Virus genome (UHGV): UHGV-2125804
DNA length: 47,909 nucleotides
Origin: a virus
Direction: 5' to 3' (one strand)
Of this stretch, positions 3,720 to 34,184 are shown piece by piece. The position numbers and the translations under genes were made by a program. Under the pieces are notes generated by a model. It was not told where the DNA came from and did not search any database. It saw nothing but the letters and a program-made list of their open reading frames with translations. Positions within the stretch are counted from its first letter, which is position 1. The number at the start of each line of letters is the position of its first letter.

Positions 3720-4140
3720 TTTGAGACAAAAACGTGTAGTTGTCTCACTGTCAACCCCTATAAAATGATAGAGTAGATAATCCATCAAGCAGACGACCCA
3801 ACCTAACTTTATTGGCATGAAGTTTCTCCTTATACCTCTTAACATACAAACGTCTAGCTTGGTGGATTTAATGGCGGCACAACAAAAAATAAATGATGAA
3901 TGGAGTTGAAAAGCTTCATTTCTTTTAAAGTTCACGTGCCGTCTTTATGTCACTGTGGCGGAAAGGCCATCAGATCAGTTGCAACGCTGACAGTGACTTA
4001 GACGAAAGGTAGCTTAAATATTAACCACATCAACATCGTCAGCGAGTTGATAAAGGTAACTAGCAGACTCTAGGATTTAAGCCAGTCTTACCGATTAGTC
4101 TGTTATAGTAGCAAGCTTGCTAGAGGTAGCTCCTCCGAGT

Positions 4141-4216
4141 TGACGTGTAGCATTATTGGTGATGCGTCTGACTGTTAGAGTTGGAAATGAGGTCGGTTCG
4201 AATCTGGCCGCGTCAA
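4141..4216 (+). ncRNA. tRNA-like element (possible degenerate or pseudo tRNA)
   Basis: 7-bp acceptor stem TGACGTG/CGCGTCA 75 nt apart; D stem GCAT/ATGC with GG loop; T arm GTCGG-TTCGAAT-CTGGC; the anticodon arm does not fold canonically. Confidence 0.2.
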
Positions 4217-4296
4217 TTAATGCAACCGAGGATAGAAGTGGTACGTGGAGGATCAGCACGATGACCGTGCTATGTAGGTTGCTTAATACATAATCA

Positions 4297-27934: not shown

Positions 27935-28141
27935 ATGCAGAATAAGACATTTGATGTTTTAAAGAATGTTGCATTAATCGTGATTCCCGCTTTAGCAACG
28001 TTTATTGGTGTTGTTGGAAAAGCATTGGAATGGCAAAACACGGATATCACAGTAATTATTGTCACTGCGGTAGGGACGTTCTTGGGAACAGTTTTAGGTG
28101 TTTCTAATCGAACGTACAAAATGCTTTCGAAAGACGAATAG
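27935..28141 (+). CDS. holin
   Basis: 68 aa, two TM helices, charged C-terminus; AAGGAGGTGA RBS (track ORF begins at 27887). Confidence 0.6.
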   Translation: MQNKTFDVLKNVALIVIPALATFIGVVGKALEWQNTDITVIIVTAVGTFLGTVLGVSNRTYKMLSKDE

Positions 28142-28151
28142 GAGGAATGAA

Positions 28152-29261
28152 ATGAAAAAGAATAAGTTTGTGCTGAGCCTGGTTACGGCTCTTTTTTTAT
28201 TGCCAATTTTCCCAGGGAATGTGGATGCGGCGAAAGGTGATCAAGGGGTTGACTGGGCAATCTATCAGGGAGCACAAGGACAATTTGGTTATGCGCATGA
28301 TAAGTTCGCAATTGCTCAAATCGGTGGTTATAATGCTGGTGGTTTATACAACCAGTGGACTTATGAGAGTCAAGTGAACTCAGCTTTAGCTCAGGGAAAA
28401 CGTGCACACACATACATTTGGTATGATACATGGGGGAGCATGAGTATTGCGAAAACCACTATGGATTACTTTTTACCGAAAGTAAAAACACCTCGTGGTT
28501 CAATCGTGGCACTAGACTTTGAGCATGGAGCCAGTGGCAATAAACAAGCGAATACGGATACTATTTTATATGGTATGCGAAGGATTCGTGATGCTGGCTA
28601 TACGCCAATGTACTATAGTTACAAACCATTCACGTTGGCAAATGTATACTATCAGCAAATTCTAGCTGAGTTTCCTGACAGTTTGTGGATGGCCGCTTAT
28701 CCGAATTACAATGTTACACCATATCCAAACTATAACGTATTTCCTTCGATGGACGGTGTGGCTATCTATCAATTCACTTCCACATATGTTGGCGGCGGAT
28801 TGGATGGTAATGTCGATTTAACTGGAATTACCGATAACGGATACACAACACTGCCTGCTCCAAATCCATCTGAAGCAACAGATATCTACCGTGCTGGACA
28901 GAATTATTCTGTGATGGAAGTCGGAAACGGTAAAGGTCACGTTGATGGATTCGGCGCAATGGCTGGGAAAATTAAAGCAGAAGGATGGAGTACTCGTACT
29001 CACAAACATCAATATGCTTTTATTCTCGACCGGACAACGGGTAAAGAATTGAAACGTATCAAGTTGAAAGACTTGCCACGAGCGGATGCTGCAAAGGTAT
29101 ATAACCGCAATGATACTGCAGGCTTCCAGATTGAGTTCAATCAAAAGGATGTTTCAGGTCATTCAATCATTATTATGATTCGCAGCACAAACGATACCGA
29201 CGGAGACACAGACGGAGGATTCAATGATTTAACTGAAACTCGTTGGTATCTGGATGTATAA
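28152..29261 (+). CDS. endolysin, GH25 muramidase with N-terminal Sec signal peptide
   Basis: MKKNKFVLSLVTALFLLPIFPGNVDA/AKG signal; GVDWAIYQG and ALDFE GH25 motifs; AGGAGGAATGAA RBS (track ORF begins at 28098). Confidence 0.8.
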   Translation: MKKNKFVLSLVTALFLLPIFPGNVDAAKGDQGVDWAIYQGAQGQFGYAHDKFAIAQIGGYNAGGLYNQWTYESQVNSALAQGKRAHTYIWYDTWGSMSIAKTTMDYFLPKVKTPRGSIVALDFEHGASGNKQANTDTILYGMRRIRDAGYTPMYYSYKPFTLANVYYQQILAEFPDSLWMAAYPNYNVTPYPNYNVFPSMDGVAIYQFTSTYVGGGLDGNVDLTGITDNGYTTLPAPNPSEATDIYRAGQNYSVMEVGNGKGHVDGFGAMAGKIKAEGWSTRTHKHQYAFILDRTTGKELKRIKLKDLPRADAAKVYNRNDTAGFQIEFNQKDVSGHSIIIMIRSTNDTDGDTDGGFNDLTETRWYLDV

Positions 29262-29391: not shown

Positions 29392-29440
29392 GGAGGCAAA
29401 ATGGTTGCTCTACAACTAACATACGAATACTATCTAAATA

Positions 29441-29505
29441 GGGATTCCTGATACAGCAAGGTTGAGAGAAAAACAGGATATGCTGTGGGGAAGTTCAGGA
29501 ATCCC
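29441..29505. repeat. extended inverted repeat upstream of tRNA
   Basis: GGGATTCCTGA...TCAGGAATCCC 11-bp perfect arms with nested ACAGCA/TGCTGT. Confidence 0.4.
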
Positions 29506-29552
29506 CATTTTATATTCTAACGCTTTGTATGTTTATCTACAAATGCTCTTTC

Positions 29553-29626
29553 GTACCCTTAGCTCAGTTGGTCAGAGCAGACGGCTCATAACCGTCCGGT
29601 CGTAGGTTCGAGTCCTACAGGGTACA
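29553..29626 (+). tRNA. tRNA-Met (anticodon CAT), no encoded CCA
   Basis: Cloverleaf: acceptor GTACCCT/AGGGTAC; D arm GCTC-AGTTGGTCA-GAGC; anticodon arm GACGG-CTCATAA-CCGTC; T arm GTAGG-TTCGAGT-CCTAC. Confidence 0.85.
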
Positions 29627-29632
29627 TAAAAA

Positions 29633-29655
29633 TACCTCCTCTTTAAGAGAAGGTA
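29633..29655 (-). terminator. terminator for the minus-strand Abi gene
   Basis: 9-bp imperfect stem ACCTCCTCT/AGAGAAGGT with U-run on the minus strand. Confidence 0.4.
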
Positions 29656-29668
29656 CGCAAATTATTAA

Positions 29669-30631
29669 TTATGGTTTGATCTTTTTTTTTAAATGCTTTT
29701 TAACTTTTTTCTTTTTTGGAAATGATTGAACTAAAGTATCTAAGTTTTTGAAACCTAGTTGCTGAGCAAGAGCGTCACTTGTAGCGATAGACTTTATCGG
29801 AGTATATATTTTGCCATAATTATAACTCGGATTAACAGATTTCATCATCTTTTGAAGTACACAGATTACAGCAGCTATTCTATCAGTATAGCGCCCATTT
29901 GGTCCCTTGAACTTAAATAGTATGTCCTTCCACTCATCAGCAATTAATGGTGTCGTATTTAACTTAATATCAATGATGTTCGAATTGTGTGCACAAATAT
30001 TTCTGACAAATTTCAGACATTTTAACCATGATAATAATTCTTTAGGCGTGCAACCATAAAAATCAGCTAGAAGATTTTGATTTTTTGTGGACATTAAGTC
30101 TATAAGATGAACGATGTCTACAAAAGTCAAAACATCGATTGTTAACCATATAGAGGGGTATTTTTCTTTATTGAGATTTTCGGTTTTTGAAATTTCTGGA
30201 TTTGAGGAGTTTAAAACTTTTGTTTTTAATCTTTTCTTGAAATCTTTTTGCCTATCTGCTAGATAATACTTGCAGTATTCGTCTCTGTTACACCAGTAAG
30301 GAAAGTTCAAATACTTGAAAGGGCCATTTTTACCTAGTATATATGCGACATTAGTTTTAATAGATACTTCTACTTCTTCAATACAATGAAGTAGGTATAC
30401 TCTCAAATTCTTATCTTGATAGTATCTACTAATTACTTGCTGAAAAGAGACTCCCTCATAAGAAATTTCTTTATTATTAACCTTTGATAAGGGGCGAGCA
30501 ACTTCTTTAATACGATAGTAACCTAATTGTGCCAATAATCTACTTGCATAATCTAGATTATTGACGTTCATTCCTCTTTCTTGAAAGAGTTTAGCTTGTT
30601 CAAGATAGGATAGAGGTCTTGGTTCATCCAT
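29669..30631 (-). CDS. Abi_2-family (AbiD/AbiF-like) abortive infection protein
   Basis: 320 aa; N-terminal LSYLEQAKLFQERGM...LAQLGYYRI matches the Abi_2 conserved N-terminal pattern; lies between tRNA and int. Confidence 0.6.
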   Translation of the reverse strand: MDEPRPLSYLEQAKLFQERGMNVNNLDYASRLLAQLGYYRIKEVARPLSKVNNKEISYEGVSFQQVISRYYQDKNLRVYLLHCIEEVEVSIKTNVAYILGKNGPFKYLNFPYWCNRDEYCKYYLADRQKDFKKRLKTKVLNSSNPEISKTENLNKEKYPSIWLTIDVLTFVDIVHLIDLMSTKNQNLLADFYGCTPKELLSWLKCLKFVRNICAHNSNIIDIKLNTTPLIADEWKDILFKFKGPNGRYTDRIAAVICVLQKMMKSVNPSYNYGKIYTPIKSIATSDALAQQLGFKNLDTLVQSFPKKKKVKKHLKKKIKP

Positions 30632-30656
30632 ACACTACTTCACACTCCTAGATAAT

Positions 30657-30704
30657 AAAAAAACCCTCACCACAGAACGTATCTGCCCATAAGGGAATGA
30701 GGGT
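30657..30704 (-). terminator. terminator/attenuator hairpin in the Abi leader
   Basis: Minus strand: ACCCUCA-(28 nt structured loop)-UGAGGGU followed by U7, about 25 nt upstream of the Abi RBS. Confidence 0.5.
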
Positions 30705-30722
30705 ATTGGCATATTCATCTAT

Positions 30723-30751
30723 AATATATCAAAAGAACTAAAAACAATCAA
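30723..30751 (-). promoter_or_regulatory. putative sigma-A promoter for Abi (TTGATT-17-TATATT)
   Basis: Hexamers on the minus strand with 17-nt spacer, upstream of the attenuator hairpin. Confidence 0.35.
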
Positions 30752-30854
30752 TTTAAATCTGGTAAATAATTATTAATTTAAGAACTAGATTTAAAAATAT
30801 CGATTTGAACGCTAGTCATGAGTCTTTCCTCAAATAATTACTGAATGAAAAATA

Positions 30855-31142
30855 TTAGATCACTATTTTATTCCCATCCATTTTAAAACCGAAAACAGGT
30901 ATTGATTCAGAGCCTCCCCAAATCTTCAGTAATCGTGGTTTATTGTTCATTAGTGCGATGTAGAAATCTTTCATAGATAGCGCAGGTTTCTTGTTTTCCC
31001 TGAACAAAACTAGATTGCTTTCTTTATCAATTTTTACAGTAGTGAAAGGAAGAAGATTGCCATTGTACATAGAATAAATCCCCTCATAATTATTATCAAA
31101 AACATTCGTTGATAATGCTGTTAACAAATCGCTTGCTCTCAT
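30855..31142 (-). CDS. hypothetical protein (95 aa)
   Basis: ORF in minus-strand operon. Confidence 0.45.
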   Translation of the reverse strand: MRASDLLTALSTNVFDNNYEGIYSMYNGNLLPFTTVKIDKESNLVLFRENKKPALSMKDFYIALMNNKPRLLKIWGGSESIPVFGFKMDGNKIVI

Positions 31143-31168
31143 TCAAAACAGCTCCTTTCAAAATACGG

Positions 31169-31381
31169 TTAGTCAATAAACCATTCAGTGTCATCATTTA
31201 TGCTTGTAGCATAATTTCGAATGTAGAAGTCATAATCGATAAATTTATTTGCTCTGCAACAATAGAAAGCAAAACATTTTTCTCCGACCTCAAAAATGCT
31301 ATTTGGTCCGAAATCCCACAATAAGTCTTGTAATGTAGAAAAAGGTATGTAGCCTTGTTCGTAGAGCAAAATAGGGTTCAT
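31169..31381 (-). CDS. hypothetical protein (70 aa)
   Basis: 4-nt overlap with the upstream YolD-like gene. Confidence 0.4.
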   Translation of the reverse strand: MNPILLYEQGYIPFSTLQDLLWDFGPNSIFEVGEKCFAFYCCRANKFIDYDFYIRNYATSINDDTEWFID

Positions 31382-31785
31382 TTCAGCTCACTCCATTTAT
31401 GCCAGTCGTACAACTCTACATGTCGTATTTCATCGTAATCTACTTTTTGATCATCAATGTAGATTCCTAATTCATCATAGCCTTTTATCATACCTACCAC
31501 ATCATCTAAATATTTACCTTCCAAATCTAGCTGTTCTAGCTGAATTGCGACAGGGCGTCTTTTTAAGCGAGCATGCTCTAGAACGTGTTGTATTTCGTGA
31601 GGGTACATCTGTGGCTTTTGTTCATTGACTCGTGATCGTTCAGCAACATCTTTTTGCATTGCTGCAGTGTGATCGGATAAAAAGAATCCTGTCAACCATT
31701 TCAACATGCCCCTATCCTCATAAACGCTTTTGGCCTCTAAAAAAAGCTTTTCTGCTGACTCATCATCATAAATCATAACCTTCAC
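31378..31785 (-). CDS. YolD-like protein
   Basis: DRGMLKW...HEIQHVLEHARLKRRPVAIQL...VDYDEI pattern as in the B. subtilis YolD family. Confidence 0.5.
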   Translation of the reverse strand: MKVMIYDDESAEKLFLEAKSVYEDRGMLKWLTGFFLSDHTAAMQKDVAERSRVNEQKPQMYPHEIQHVLEHARLKRRPVAIQLEQLDLEGKYLDDVVGMIKGYDELGIYIDDQKVDYDEIRHVELYDWHKWSELK

Positions 31786-31845
31786 CTCACCGATATTATA
31801 CGAACGTTTGTTCTGGTTTGTAAAGCGAACAGTTTCTTAAATCTG

Positions 31846-31879
31846 AAAAAAAGGGGCAAAAAAGGGGCAAATATTTGCC
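31846..31879 (-). terminator. terminator module (copy A of a duplicated element)
   Basis: Minus strand: GGCAAAUAUUUGCC hairpin followed by CCUUUUUUGCCCCUUUUUUU. Confidence 0.5.
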
Positions 31880-32015
31880 AATGTTGTCAAATAATCAGTA
31901 AGAAAGAGTGGGGGGAAGGTCGAAAAAACATTGATATGACAACAATTAGCAATATTTGTTTAGCGATAATCCAACTAAGTAGGATCCGGCATGTGTCTGA
32001 TATAAACCGCGTAAC

Positions 32016-32052: not shown

Positions 32053-32088
32053 CCAAAAGGGGCAGAAAAGGGGCAAAACTCATTTGCC
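32053..32088 (-). terminator. int terminator (copy B), overlapping the int stop codon
   Basis: Minus strand: GGCAAAUGAGUUUUGCC followed by CCUUUUCUGCCCCUUUU. Confidence 0.55.
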
Positions 32089-33216
32089 TTTAGCATTAAG
32101 CTTTTCAACAATACTAGCTTTTGTTTTCTTGGTTACATGAGTGTAGATTTTCATTGTTGTCTCCATGTCTGCATGACCTACGCGTTCCATGATTGCTTTT
32201 ACTGGTATGTTTAATTCAGCAAGTAGGGAGATGTGAGAGTGTCTAAAAATATGACTAGACATTTTCTTTTTGATAGCATCTTTACCAAGTTTGTCATTCA
32301 TAGCTTTTAGCGAATTGTTGAACGCATTGATTTGAATTGGTTTGCCAGTCTTGCCAACAAAGAGATAAGAAGTCTTTCCTTTAAATTTTAACTTATTCTC
32401 TAAAATCAATTCGTCAATTATTTCTATCGCTCGATTCGATAAATCAATTTCACGATATGATGCTAATGTTTTTGGCATCTCTTTTTTTGCATTCTTGTAT
32501 CCGTCCGAATAATCTAGAGTACCAATCACTTTTATAGTTTTGCTATTCGGATCGTAATCATCGATTGTAAGGCTTATAGCTTCGCCTGCACGCAGTCCAG
32601 TTAAATACATGAACTCAGCTAACCTTCCGTGATGGACGCTCTGAAACGTGCTGTAATAGACGTTCAATAGCTTGTTGATTTCTTCTTCTTCTAAATACTT
32701 ATCTTCCACTCTTTCATAAGTTTCTTTTGTTAAAGCTGGTTTAGGAACTTTCGCCCTGTTAATAGGATTAATTTTGATCATTTCCATATCCACTGCATAA
32801 TCAAGCGCCATTTTTAGCACACTTCGAAACTTCTTCTTATATTCGTAAGATTGAGGTAACTCATTTATGAAATCTTGATAAAATCTTGTGTCTGTATTTC
32901 GCACCACCGCAGCAGTGTTAATATTCTTTCGTATGTATTTCAAAAGCTTTTCATAATTAACTCGCGATGACTGACGAATAGAAACTTTGTGCTGATTCCA
33001 CCATATATCCAATAATTCTCCAAGCGTGATCTTGATTTGATTTTTTTCTTCGATCTTCTTATCGATTTTATCTTGAAGTTCACTGATTGCTTGTTTTTTT
33101 GCTTGATTAGATTTGCTGTTAAGAGTGACTGAAACTTTTCTGCTTTTTTCTGTGTATGGGTCAATGTATCGTTCAGAATATTTGTATTTCCCGTTCGGTA
33201 ATTCTTCAATCCACAT
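32080..33216 (-). CDS. int: site-specific tyrosine integrase
   Basis: 378 aa; C-terminal catalytic region with HIFRHSHISL...GHADMETTMKIYTHV (R..H..R..Y pattern). Confidence 0.9.
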   Translation of the reverse strand: MWIEELPNGKYKYSERYIDPYTEKSRKVSVTLNSKSNQAKKQAISELQDKIDKKIEEKNQIKITLGELLDIWWNQHKVSIRQSSRVNYEKLLKYIRKNINTAAVVRNTDTRFYQDFINELPQSYEYKKKFRSVLKMALDYAVDMEMIKINPINRAKVPKPALTKETYERVEDKYLEEEEINKLLNVYYSTFQSVHHGRLAEFMYLTGLRAGEAISLTIDDYDPNSKTIKVIGTLDYSDGYKNAKKEMPKTLASYREIDLSNRAIEIIDELILENKLKFKGKTSYLFVGKTGKPIQINAFNNSLKAMNDKLGKDAIKKKMSSHIFRHSHISLLAELNIPVKAIMERVGHADMETTMKIYTHVTKKTKASIVEKLNAKGK

Positions 33217-33626: not shown

Positions 33627-34184
33627 TTAACTAGGTAAATTATTGATCGCAAATTGTGCTTCGTCAGGCGTATACTTGTCGTGAATTAACTGATCGTACA
33701 AACCTTGATCAGAAAAAGAAGTAAAATCCAAGTAATCTTTAGCTGTTTGAAGGGCATTTTGGTTCCAATCAGCAGAAATATTATCAATTGCGTACTGCGC
33801 TGCATCTGCTGGGTATTCTTCAAATATTAACTGATCATATAAACCTTGCTTAGAAAATGCTGAGTAATCAAGATATGCCTCAGCAGCACCTAAAGCATTT
33901 CTTTGTTCTCTAGTAACTGAATTGTCTTGAACTTTGACTGGACTAGAACTTGATTCATATGGGGCCACTGATGAAGTTTCTTCTGTTTCTCCACCCACAT
34001 ATTCAATATCTGGGTCGGCGGTTAAATGATCATCGCCAGTGTTATCTTTAGCTTTTTCAAATTCGGAGTCAAAATCATAAGAAGATGAGCTTTCGTCCTT
34101 AATCGCTTCATCACTGTTAGATGAACAACCAGCAATTGTAAAACCAAGGGTAATCACAACTAAACCTAACAATATTTTTTTCAT
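33627..34184 (-). CDS. ltp: Ltp-family surface lipoprotein (superinfection exclusion)
   Basis: Lipobox LGFTIAGC; two tandem ~45-aa repeats A..YLD.S.FS.QGLYDQLI...Y..D.AQ.AI.N, typical of TP-J34 Ltp. Confidence 0.75.
   Translation of the reverse strand: MKKILLGLVVITLGFTIAGCSSNSDEAIKDESSSSYDFDSEFEKAKDNTGDDHLTADPDIEYVGGETEETSSVAPYESSSSPVKVQDNSVTREQRNALGAAEAYLDYSAFSKQGLYDQLIFEEYPADAAQYAIDNISADWNQNALQTAKDYLDFTSFSDQGLYDQLIHDKYTPDEAQFAINNLPS

What the first reader, a model, noticed from the sequence alone, without database searches (positions are those of the whole stretch)
29669..30751. Abi_2-family abortive-infection gene with an intrinsic-terminator attenuator in its leader
The 320-aa protein carries the Abi_2 (AbiD/AbiF-like) N-terminal signature. 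On the minus strand a TTGATT-17-TATATT promoter is followed by a 7-bp stem (ACCCUCA/UGAGGGU) enclosing a structured loop and then U7, only ~25 nt before the Abi RBS. The gene therefore looks transcriptionally gated by conditional read-through, by protein- or RNA-mediated antitermination, or by processive transcription from the int side. Abi toxicity usually demands tight control, and the regulator is unknown.
Basis: partly seen in the sequence, partly recalled or inferred. Interest (0 to 1): 0.6.

Follow-up and report, generated by a model that had tools for sequence, protein, structure and literature searches.

The report
Abi toxin gene with RNA antitoxin leader
The "terminator hairpin" in front of this phage-borne Abi gene is a conserved, three-helix small RNA that most likely acts as the RNA antitoxin of a known AbiD/AbiF-type toxin-antitoxin defence module, so the system is of a known kind but its RNA has an uncatalogued shape.

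Summary
ORF 29669..30631(-) is a full-length Abi_2/AbiD protein with the HEPN motif R210-x4-H215. It is homologous to the solved PbAbiF (8VZ6). A promoter-like site, a stem enclosing two small helices, and a U-run lie directly upstream.

The "structured loop" is the key feature. The element is a roughly 60-nt three-way-junction RNA (P1/P2/P3). It occurs once in the window (covariance model, 77.5 bits). It was found just upstream of 92 related abi genes in Enterococcus, Streptococcus, Lactococcus, Lactobacillus, Staphylococcus and Veillonella, and in Fusobacterium by a separate search. Compensatory changes occur in 13 of 15 pairs.

This matches the published AbiD/F type III toxin-antitoxin logic: a promoter, an abundant terminated ncRNA, rare read-through into a HEPN toxin, and the ncRNA binding and neutralising the toxin. 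No unknown antiterminator is needed.

The RNA is not the Rfam abiF motif RF03085, and nothing in Rfam 15 matches it. I file it as a new RNA variant of a known system.

In passing, I found structurally intact "orphan" copies of the RNA, without an abi gene, in other phage contigs.

The parts
30746..30751 (-). -35 hexamer TTGATT of the sRNA/abi promoter
   Evidence: The position is conserved in homologous loci.
30723..30728 (-). -10 hexamer TATATT, TG-extended
   Evidence: DNA similarity to Enterococcus loci L006/L007 begins around the promoter.
30657..30716 (-). Predicted ~60-nt small RNA, from the inferred TSS (about 30718-30715) to the end of the U-run. It is the candidate RNA antitoxin and cis-attenuator.
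   Evidence: The covariance model R1 hits the window only once, at 30647..30718(-), 77.5 bits, E=4e-16. The TSS is inferred from the -10 position and was not measured.
30706..30710 (-). Conserved single-stranded 5' tail motif GCCAA (GACAA or ATCAA in relatives) just before P1
   Evidence: Invariant C..A columns in alignments A2 and A3.
30697..30704 (-). P1 5' strand ACCCTCAT
   Evidence: All 8 P1 pairs show changes on both sides somewhere in the family.
30663..30670 (-). P1 3' strand GTGAGGGT. It doubles as the terminator stem.
30686..30695 (-). P2 hairpin CCC-TTAT-GGG
   Evidence: Variants include CG to GC, UA and AU across the family.
30673..30685 (-). P3 hairpin CAGA-TACGT-TCTG, the nearly invariant core
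   Evidence: P3 cells are 100% paired, with CAGG/CCUG, CAGU/ACUG and CGGG/CCCG variants.
30657..30663 (-). T7 run (terminator U-tract)
   Evidence: A U-run follows P1 in every family member.
30645..30649 (-). Shine-Dalgarno AGGAG of abi, 13 nt before the ATG
   Evidence: It is conserved in L006/L007.
29669..30631 (-). abi gene: Abi_2/AbiD-F family HEPN protein, 320 aa, the candidate toxin
29987..30004 (-). HEPN catalytic motif R210-N-I-C-A-H215 (Rx4H)
   Evidence: Invariant in alignment A1. It aligns with R210/H215 of PbAbiF 8VZ6, residues reported as required for activity (PMC12373285).
29632..29656 (-). Terminator-like hairpin plus T-run directly after the abi stop codon. It marks the end of the module.
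   Evidence: It is partly conserved in L007.

Best explanation
The locus is a self-contained two-component AbiD/AbiF-type (type III-like) toxin-antitoxin defence module carried in the accessory region of a temperate phage.

A constitutive sigma-70-type promoter (30751..30723) transcribes a roughly 60-nt RNA. This RNA folds into a compact three-way junction: P1 closes the junction, and P2 and P3 are small hairpins. P1 followed by U7 is also an intrinsic terminator, so most transcripts end there and accumulate as a free small RNA.

A minority of transcripts read through into abi, 25 nt downstream, and yield small amounts of a HEPN (Rx4H) RNase. By analogy with RCd22-AbiFCd and AbiFr-PbAbiF, the small RNA binds the Abi dimer and blocks its active site. 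During phage infection the RNA:protein balance is upset and the RNase arrests growth, giving abortive infection.

Shown here: the protein family, the catalytic motif, the RNA structure and its covariation, the linkage and geometry of promoter, RNA, U-run, RBS and gene, and the modular boundaries.

Inferred: transcription start and stop, toxicity, RNA-protein binding, and the trigger.
For: Protein. Abi_2 at 4.4e-38 and AbiD at 3e-42. Homologous to PbAbiF chain 8vz6_A, E=2.9e-15 over residues 10-233, with R210/H215 aligned and invariant among relatives.

RNA.
- The same element sits upstream of abi in Lactobacillus, Streptococcus and Lactococcus phages and in 87 of 165 fetched loci by a regex.
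- Model R1 finds 92 elements just upstream of abi among the 98 sequences searched. Each is on the gene's strand, immediately upstream. One further weak hit (L004 1224-1273, 29.9 bits) is not upstream of abi.
- R1 also finds it in E. faecalis, Fusobacterium, Aerococcus and Nicoliella replicons.
- 90% of cells are paired, against 34-62% when partners are slid. 13 of 15 pairs have double changes, and 0/500 shuffles reach the observed values.
- RNAalifold recovers the same three helices on the model-fitted alignment and on the plain MAFFT alignment.

Dedicated promoter at a fixed distance: 38/62 loci.

Module boundaries. The leader is 81-83% identical to the Enterococcus loci. The CDS is 68-71% identical and DNA upstream of the -10 is about 52%.

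Reverse test. Starting from the RNA, 9 of 17 model-positive phage loci have abi starting 8-28 nt after the model match.

Stand-alone function. Orphan copies without abi keep P1 by compensatory changes and are followed by a separate promoter. This argues that the RNA has a function as a free molecule.

Literature.
- RCd22 deletion raises abiF expression 17-fold. RCd22 neutralises the toxin in cis and in trans, and it co-purifies with AbiF (PMC12373285).
- A 50-nt transcript ends at the terminator before abiD1 (PMC2661086).
- The upstream promoter-terminator segment is required for lactococcal AbiF and AbiD-like activity (PMC11381338).
- The AbiD/F group is summarised as protein plus RNA systems (PMC13064643).
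Against: There are no expression, toxicity or binding data for this locus or for any member of this RNA class.

The RNA does not match the only curated abiF RNA family, RF03085. Transfer of function therefore rests on protein homology and shared architecture, not on RNA homology.

Protein identity to the characterised AbiFs is low: 23% to the phiCDKH02 Abi, and a local match only to PbAbiF.

The single-sequence fold is only moderately better than shuffles (z=-2.1).

In lactococcal AbiD1, regulation was reported to be mainly translational, through a phage protein (PMC2661086). The trigger step may therefore differ.
Confidence: 0.72

Rival explanations
1. Pure cis-acting transcription attenuator. 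The hairpin and U-run only limit abi transcription, and a separate protein or RNA antiterminator, or a phage signal, opens it. The terminated RNA has no function of its own.
For: The terminator geometry sits directly before the RBS. Cis termination lowers expression in RCd22 reporter fusions regardless of AbiF presence (PMC12373285). A terminated 50-nt abiD1 transcript has been observed (PMC2661086).
Against: A terminator needs only a GC stem and a U-run. Here two inner helices covary, and the P3 core, the 5' CAA and the junctions are nearly invariant across phyla.

The leader is more conserved than the gene.

Orphan copies followed by their own downstream promoter keep the structure without gating abi.

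I noticed no conserved alternative pairing. The extended-leader alternative fold is not significant (z=-0.75).

Full-length abiD1 mRNA did not rise on infection (PMC2661086).
Confidence: 0.1
2. The RNA is an obligatory subunit or activator of the Abi ribonucleoprotein, in the way a crRNA is for Cas13, rather than only an inhibitor. On this view it is needed for folding, stability or target sensing.
For: Lactococcal abiF cloned without its upstream segment gave no phage resistance, while cloning with it did (PMC11381338). AbiFCd could not be purified free of RCd22 (PMC12373285). AbiF is proposed as the Cas13 ancestor (PMC12737573). The RNA is tightly co-inherited with the gene.
Against: The lactococcal result can be explained by promoter loss or by toxicity during cloning. 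In C. difficile and Prevotellaceae the RNA reduces toxicity (PMC12373285, PMC12737573). L126 keeps an abi gene with the RNA replaced by unrelated sequence.
Confidence: 0.13
3. Riboswitch-like sensor. The three-way junction binds a small molecule or a phage-derived ligand and thereby modulates termination.
For: It is a compact junction with invariant unpaired nucleotides, placed in a 5' leader and ending in a terminator. Saunier et al. speculate about riboswitch-like sensing for RCd22 (PMC12373285).
Against: The aptamer-closing helix is itself the terminator stem, leaving no separate expression platform and no mutually exclusive helix. The RNA is associated only with abi genes (or with no gene), not with metabolic genes. 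There is no Rfam riboswitch match.
Confidence: 0.04
4. Chance hairpin, or an ordinary terminator of the upstream operon (ORFs 31785..30855).
For: The promoter-like site count in the region is not above chance. The fold z-score is modest.
Against: The model hit has E=4e-16 and is unique in 47.9 kb. The element is conserved, with covariation, in 92 loci whose upstream genes differ.
Confidence: 0.01

Closest known systems
C. difficile phi027 AbiFCd / RCd22 (Saunier et al. 2025, PMC12373285)
   Same: Both are prophage-borne Abi_2 HEPN toxins. In both, a SigA-type promoter drives an abundant terminated ncRNA, and rare read-through makes the abi mRNA. There the RNA acts in cis by termination and in trans by binding. 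The Rx4H residues are equivalent.
   Different: RCd22 is about 100-130 nt, with two RF03085 hairpins and a separate terminator hairpin. Here there is a single ~45-nt three-way junction whose closing helix is the terminator. The proteins are only about 23% identical. The gene lies after the lysin near the att side, not inside the lysis module.
Prevotellaceae PbAbiF-AbiFr RNP (Zilberzwige-Tal et al. 2025; PDB 8VZ6; described in PMC12737573 and PMC12373285)
   Same: The protein is homologous (E=2.9e-15) with R210/H215 aligned. Each monomer binds one cis-encoded ncRNA, whose single-stranded bulge blocks the HEPN site.
   Different: The primary paper could not be read here. I do not know whether its RNA resembles this junction. 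The 3' bulge of the hairpin-type RNA corresponds in position to P3 here, but this is an inference.
Rfam RF03085 abiF RNA motif (Weinberg et al. 2017)
   Same: It has the same position and strand relative to Abi_2 genes. The topology is the same: an outer GC helix, a short 5' spacer, a 3-bp inner helix, then a conserved 3' segment beginning CA(A/G)AU. In single-copy loci (L031, L033) the outer helix is also followed by a U-run and the RBS.
   Different: RF03085 is a 37-nt two-helix hairpin with a 6-nt 3' bulge. Here the bulge is replaced by a 13-nt hairpin (P3). There is no cross-detection in either direction.
L. lactis AbiD1 leader (Anba 1995; Bidnenko 2009, PMC2661086) and the lactococcal AbiD/F group (PMC11381338, PMC13064643)
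   Same: A strong promoter, a 50-nt transcript ending at a terminator just upstream of the gene, a poly-U abutting the RBS, and an upstream segment required for function.
   Different: I could not obtain the pIL105 or pNP40 sequences, and a blastn search for the element in plasmids found nothing. Whether those leaders fold into this junction is untested. AbiD1 is additionally activated at the translational level by phage Orf1.
ToxIN / AbiQ type III toxin-antitoxin systems
   Same: An RNA antitoxin is encoded upstream of the toxin, a terminator sets the RNA:toxin ratio, and the phenotype is abortive infection.
   Different: ToxI-type antitoxins are tandem repeat arrays processed by a non-HEPN endoribonuclease. 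Here there is a single-copy structured RNA and a HEPN toxin, with no repeats in the leader.

Membership tests
Pfam Abi_2 (PF07751) / AbiD-AbiF protein group | Domain match above the curated gathering score | tested here: met
   131.9 bits against a cut-off of 25.6, E=4.4e-38, nearly full model. PADLOC AbiD 3.1e-42.
Pfam Abi_2 (PF07751) / AbiD-AbiF protein group | HEPN Rx4-6H catalytic motif | tested here: met
   R210-NICA-H215 is invariant in A1 and aligns with the RNSCCH motif of 8VZ6.
AbiD/F-type type III-like toxin-antitoxin module | Conserved structured ncRNA encoded immediately upstream on the same strand | tested here: met
   R1 hit at 30647..30718(-). 92 elements were found immediately upstream of abi among the 98 sequences searched. 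Covariation is present in 13/15 pairs.
AbiD/F-type type III-like toxin-antitoxin module | Own promoter before the RNA and an intrinsic terminator between RNA and toxin gene, with abi expressed only by read-through | tested here: met
   This is sequence-level only: promoter, P1 plus U7, and 25 nt from U-run to ATG. Transcript ends were not measured.
AbiD/F-type type III-like toxin-antitoxin module | Protein is toxic and the RNA binds and neutralises it | not testable with these tools
   Requires expression and binding experiments or RNA-protein structure prediction.
Rfam RF03085 (abiF RNA) | Covariance-model score at or above 37 bits | tested here: not met
   No RF03085 match in the window at gathering threshold, or at E<=10 on 30560..30900. 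None in 17 related loci at E<=1. Positive controls score 37.6-45.5 bits.
ToxIN-like type III TA | Antitoxin is a tandem array of short repeats | tested here: not met
   There is a single model hit in the window and no direct repeat in the leader.
Terminator/antiterminator attenuator or riboswitch | Conserved mutually exclusive alternative helix competing with the terminator stem | tested here: inconclusive
   None is evident in alignments A2 and A3. The alternative fold of the 84-nt leader is not better than shuffles. No formal search for alternative helices was made.

The most novel reading that the evidence does not exclude
The three-way-junction RNA is a mobile, trans-acting immunity determinant in its own right. 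Phages that carry orphan copies (no abi gene) may use them as decoy antitoxins to disarm AbiD/F systems of resident prophages or hosts, much as phage PhiTE uses pseudo-ToxI. The near-invariant P3 hairpin would be the plug for the HEPN active site. That would make this RNA class both the antitoxin and the counter-defence currency of a widespread Lactobacillales, Veillonella and Fusobacterium Abi family.
Probability: 0.12. Interest if true: 0.7.

Novelty: new variant of a known kind. Interest (0 to 1): 0.4.

Why it matters
The finding's open question ("the regulator is unknown") has a likely answer: the leader RNA is itself the probable regulator and antitoxin.

The analysis also defines a second abiF-associated RNA class, supported by covariation. 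Rfam 15 has no family for it. It is the class I found with the Abi_2 genes of streptococcal, enterococcal, lactococcal, staphylococcal and Veillonella (pro)phages sampled here, including pathogens.

This class gives a compact natural example in which one helix serves as both terminator stem and protein-binding scaffold. Because AbiF RNPs are proposed ancestors of Cas13, a second RNA architecture bound by the same protein fold bears on how the RNA partner diversified.

For annotation, these loci should be called two-component systems. Cloning abi without the roughly 100 bp upstream is likely to fail or mislead.

Tried and rejected
- Rfam at gathering and at permissive thresholds gave only noise at the leader (B. 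rapa snoRNA, NsiR1, mir-3036).
It pairs the C-rich P1 5' strand with the SD region. I did not pursue this as an RBS-sequestering switch, because P1 3' and the SD are both G-rich by necessity.
- Leader-peptide attenuation. The window has an ATG at 30718 opening a 27-codon frame through the hairpin to the TAG at 30637. In relatives the frame is absent or stops inside P2 (sequences), so I rejected it.
- Fetching lactococcal pIL105 (abiD1) and pNP40 (abiF) by accession failed. blastn of the Lactococcus prophage element against plasmids found nothing relevant.
- The Cell 2025 PbAbiF paper is not held, and Weinberg 2017's main text does not mention abiF.
- A 14-mer scan of IMG/VR is dominated by chance hits: 63 of 80 listed loci have neither the RNA nor abi. 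It needed filtering with the model.
- Protein structure prediction was not run. Only window or database proteins may be submitted, a single-sequence model would add little to the 8VZ6 sequence match, and no tool here models RNA-protein complexes.
- The three upstream ORFs (135, 70 and 95 aa) have no informative family hits. They are not conserved next to abi in relatives, so I do not count them as part of the module.

Full report
**1. What is there**

On the minus strand, ORF 29669..30631 encodes a 320-aa protein.
- It matches Pfam Abi_2 almost end to end (E=4.4e-38).
- It also matches the PADLOC AbiD model (3.1e-42) and PHROG 2158.
- It is homologous to the only solved AbiF, chain 8vz6_A (E=2.9e-15, residues 10-233).
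- Its R210-NICA-H215 aligns with the HEPN Rx4H motif of that protein. The motif is invariant among five phage relatives.

Upstream lie, in order:
- TTGATT-17-TATATT (30751..30723, TG-extended)
- the stem ACCCTCAT/GTGAGGGT (30704..30697 and 30670..30663)
- a T7 run (to 30657)
- AGGAG (30649..30645)
- the ATG (30631)

A terminator-like hairpin (29656..29632) follows the stop codon.

**2. The 'structured loop' is the main feature**

Folded locally, the element is a three-way junction:
- P1 is the closing helix.
- P2 is CCC-UUAU-GGG.
- P3 is CAGA-UACGU-UCUG.

The fold energy is -17.5 kcal/mol with z=-2.1.

The same element is visible by eye upstream of the abi homologues of Lactobacillus phage JNU_P5, Streptococcus phages Javan149 and Javan14, and Lactococcus phage proPhi1.

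I fetched 160 further loci through the protein and built a covariance model (R1). R1 gave these results:
- It hits the 47.9-kb window exactly once, at 30647..30718(-), with 77.5 bits and E=4e-16.
- It finds 92 elements just upstream of abi among the 98 sequences searched (the window and loci with the closer Abi relatives). Each is on the gene's strand, immediately upstream. One further weak hit in L004 is not upstream of abi.
- It also hits replicons of E. faecalis, Fusobacterium vincentii, Aerococcus and Nicoliella.

Covariation on 52 distinct sequences:
- 90% of cells form pairs, against 34-62% when partners are slid.
- 13 of 15 pairs show changes on both sides.
- No shuffle out of 500 reaches any of the observed measures.
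- P3 is almost invariant, but where it changes it changes on both sides (CAGG/CCUG, CAGU/ACUG, CGGG/CCCG).

RNAalifold recovers the same three helices on the model-fitted alignment and on a sequence-only MAFFT alignment.

A 5' single-stranded CAA and the junction nucleotides are also conserved.

A sigma-70 promoter ends 15-19 nt before P1 in 38 of 62 distinct loci, and it is often a perfect consensus.

Against the nearest relatives (Enterococcus durans and E. florum), DNA similarity starts around the promoter. Identity is 81-83% in the leader, 68-71% in the coding region and about 52% further upstream. The unit that moves and is conserved is therefore promoter, RNA, abi and terminator.

**3. 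What it most likely does**

This architecture matches what has been established for the AbiD/F group.

In C. difficile (PMC12373285):
- A SigA promoter makes the abundant ncRNA RCd22, which ends at a terminator in front of abiF.
- Read-through gives the abiF mRNA.
- Deleting RCd22 raises abiF expression 17-fold and slows growth.
- RCd22 neutralises the toxin in cis and in trans, and it co-purifies with the protein.

For Prevotellaceae AbiF, a cryo-EM structure shows a dimer with one ncRNA per monomer. A single-stranded bulge of the RNA blocks the HEPN site (as summarised in PMC12737573 and PMC12373285).

In L. lactis:
- A 50-nt transcript ending at a terminator just upstream of abiD1 was seen in the 1990s.
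- The full-length mRNA did not increase on infection (PMC2661086).
- The upstream promoter-terminator segment is required for AbiF and AbiD-like activity (PMC11381338).
- A 2026 review lists these as protein-plus-RNA systems (PMC13064643).

I therefore read 30657..30716 as an sRNA gene whose product is both a cis attenuator and the trans-acting antitoxin of the HEPN RNase encoded by abi.

The structure, linkage and geometry are shown here. Transcript ends, toxicity, binding and the infection trigger are inferred.

**4. How it differs from the known RNA**

The curated abiF RNA, RF03085, is a 37-nt hairpin. It has a 6-bp outer helix, a one-nucleotide spacer, a 3-bp inner helix and a 3' bulge CAAAUC.

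RF03085 is present in front of distant Abi_2 genes of Paenibacillus, Brevibacillus and Bhargavaea, and twice in the C. difficile phage leader.

It is not detected in the window even at E<=10, nor in 17 loci of the junction class at E<=1. Conversely, R1 does not detect the RF03085 loci with filters off.

The two RNAs share position, strand and topology. In single-copy RF03085 loci the outer helix is also followed by a U-run and the RBS.

The simplest reading is that the junction RNA is a variant in which the 3' bulge has become a hairpin (P3). This is an inference and has not been tested.

A still simpler hairpin with a CAAAUG loop precedes the Fructobacillus gene.

**5. Independent check from the RNA side, and orphans**

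I scanned IMG/VR for the 14-mer core and filtered the hits with R1. This gave 17 RNA-positive loci:
- Nine have abi starting 8-28 nt after the model match, on the same strand.
- One is cut by the contig end.
- Seven have the RNA with its own extended -10 promoter and U-run but no abi in the held DNA. A further promoter-like TATAAT follows immediately.

In the orphan loci I inspected, the RNA sits after the lysin, where abi usually lies. In one locus it precedes early-type genes.

Several orphans keep P1 through compensatory changes, while one looks partly degenerate.

This supports a function for the free RNA. It also raises the possibility that these are decoy antitoxins, but they could equally be remnants left after toxin loss.

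**6. Context in the window**

The window looks like a circularly permuted temperate siphovirus genome:
- a structural module through the GH25 lysin (28098..29261, +)
- a tRNA-Met (29553..29626, +)
- then, on the minus strand: abi, three small unknown ORFs, a tyrosine integrase (32080..33216), a superinfection-exclusion lipoprotein (33627..34184) and a repressor-like ORF
- then the early genes on the plus strand

It has no close relative among deposited phages. The nearest patches are from Enterococcus phages.

The abi module is thus a typical accessory ('moron') defence gene near the attachment region.

**7. Verdict**

The feature is real, and most of its meaning is already explained by recent literature. 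It is an AbiD/F-type RNA-protein toxin-antitoxin module.

What is new is the RNA architecture. It is well supported by covariation, it is absent from Rfam 15, and I found no description of it in the papers I could read. The orphan copies are also new.

Interest is moderate: 0.4.

Noticed in passing
L189 11963-12035(+), L211 3488-3560(-), L190 3685-3758(-), L226 10983-11055(+), L204 4160-4230(+), L212 270-340(+), L207 2147-2218(-): These are 'orphan' copies of the three-way-junction RNA (51-74 bits). Each has its own extended -10 promoter and U-run, but there is no abi gene in the held DNA. Most lie after the phage lysin and are followed at once by another promoter-like site. Several keep P1 by compensatory changes. 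They could be decoy antitoxins or remnants left after toxin loss.
   Followed up: partly
window 29553-29626 (+): A complete tRNA-Met (CAT) gene (71 bits) lies between the lysin and abi, and its 3' end abuts the abi terminator. Copies 94-99% identical occur in Enterococcus, Listeria, Latilactobacillus and even an Acinetobacter phage record, annotated tRNA-Met or tRNA-Ile. In the E. durans relative (L006) a tRNA lies upstream of abi instead.
   Followed up: no
window 4140-4217 (+): ARAGORN calls a tRNA with anticodon TTA ('tRNA-Stop', a would-be UAA suppressor). The Rfam tRNA model did not report it at gathering threshold, so it is doubtful.
   Followed up: no
window 31838-31882 and 32055-32077: Direct repeats of AAAAGGGGCA(A/G)A flank the 3' end of the integrase gene. 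They may be integrase arm-type binding sites marking attP. That would place abi and the three small ORFs at the lysin-side end of the integrated prophage.
   Followed up: no
window 29436-29451 / 29495-29510: A 16-nt inverted repeat, 94% complementary, with a 43-nt spacer, lies between the lysin gene and the tRNA. Its function is unknown.
   Followed up: no
window 33627-34184 (-): A lipoprotein matching superinfection-exclusion PHROGs (phrog_4980, 1e-44) lies next to the integrase. The phage therefore carries at least two defence-type accessory genes.
   Followed up: no
window 30855-31785 (-): Three small ORFs (135, 70 and 95 aa) lie between int and the abi promoter. They sit behind a near-consensus promoter-like site (31824..31795, 11/12). 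Only the first matches a PHROG (16307), which has no known function. They are not conserved next to abi in relatives.
   Followed up: partly
L126 1100-1200: This abi homologue (43% identity) has lost the RNA element. Unrelated sequence replaces it, while the RBS region is still that of its relatives L122 and L161. It is a natural 'toxin without cognate RNA' case, or a decaying locus.
   Followed up: no
L020 1422-1474; L031 1406-1442; L033 1408-1444: Other leader variants exist. The Fructobacillus gene has a plain hairpin with a CAAAUG loop plus U-run. In the Bhargavaea and Brevibacillus loci a single RF03085 hairpin is itself followed by a U-run and the RBS. 'Antitoxin hairpin = terminator' therefore seems general for single-copy loci.
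   Followed up: partly
L115 1183-1293 and L045 2439-2485: Rfam DUF3800-I and DUF3800-XI RNAs lie next to abi loci: upstream of the abi RNA in L115, together with a tRNA, and downstream of abi in L045. This may reflect clustering of RNA-associated defence genes.
   Followed up: no
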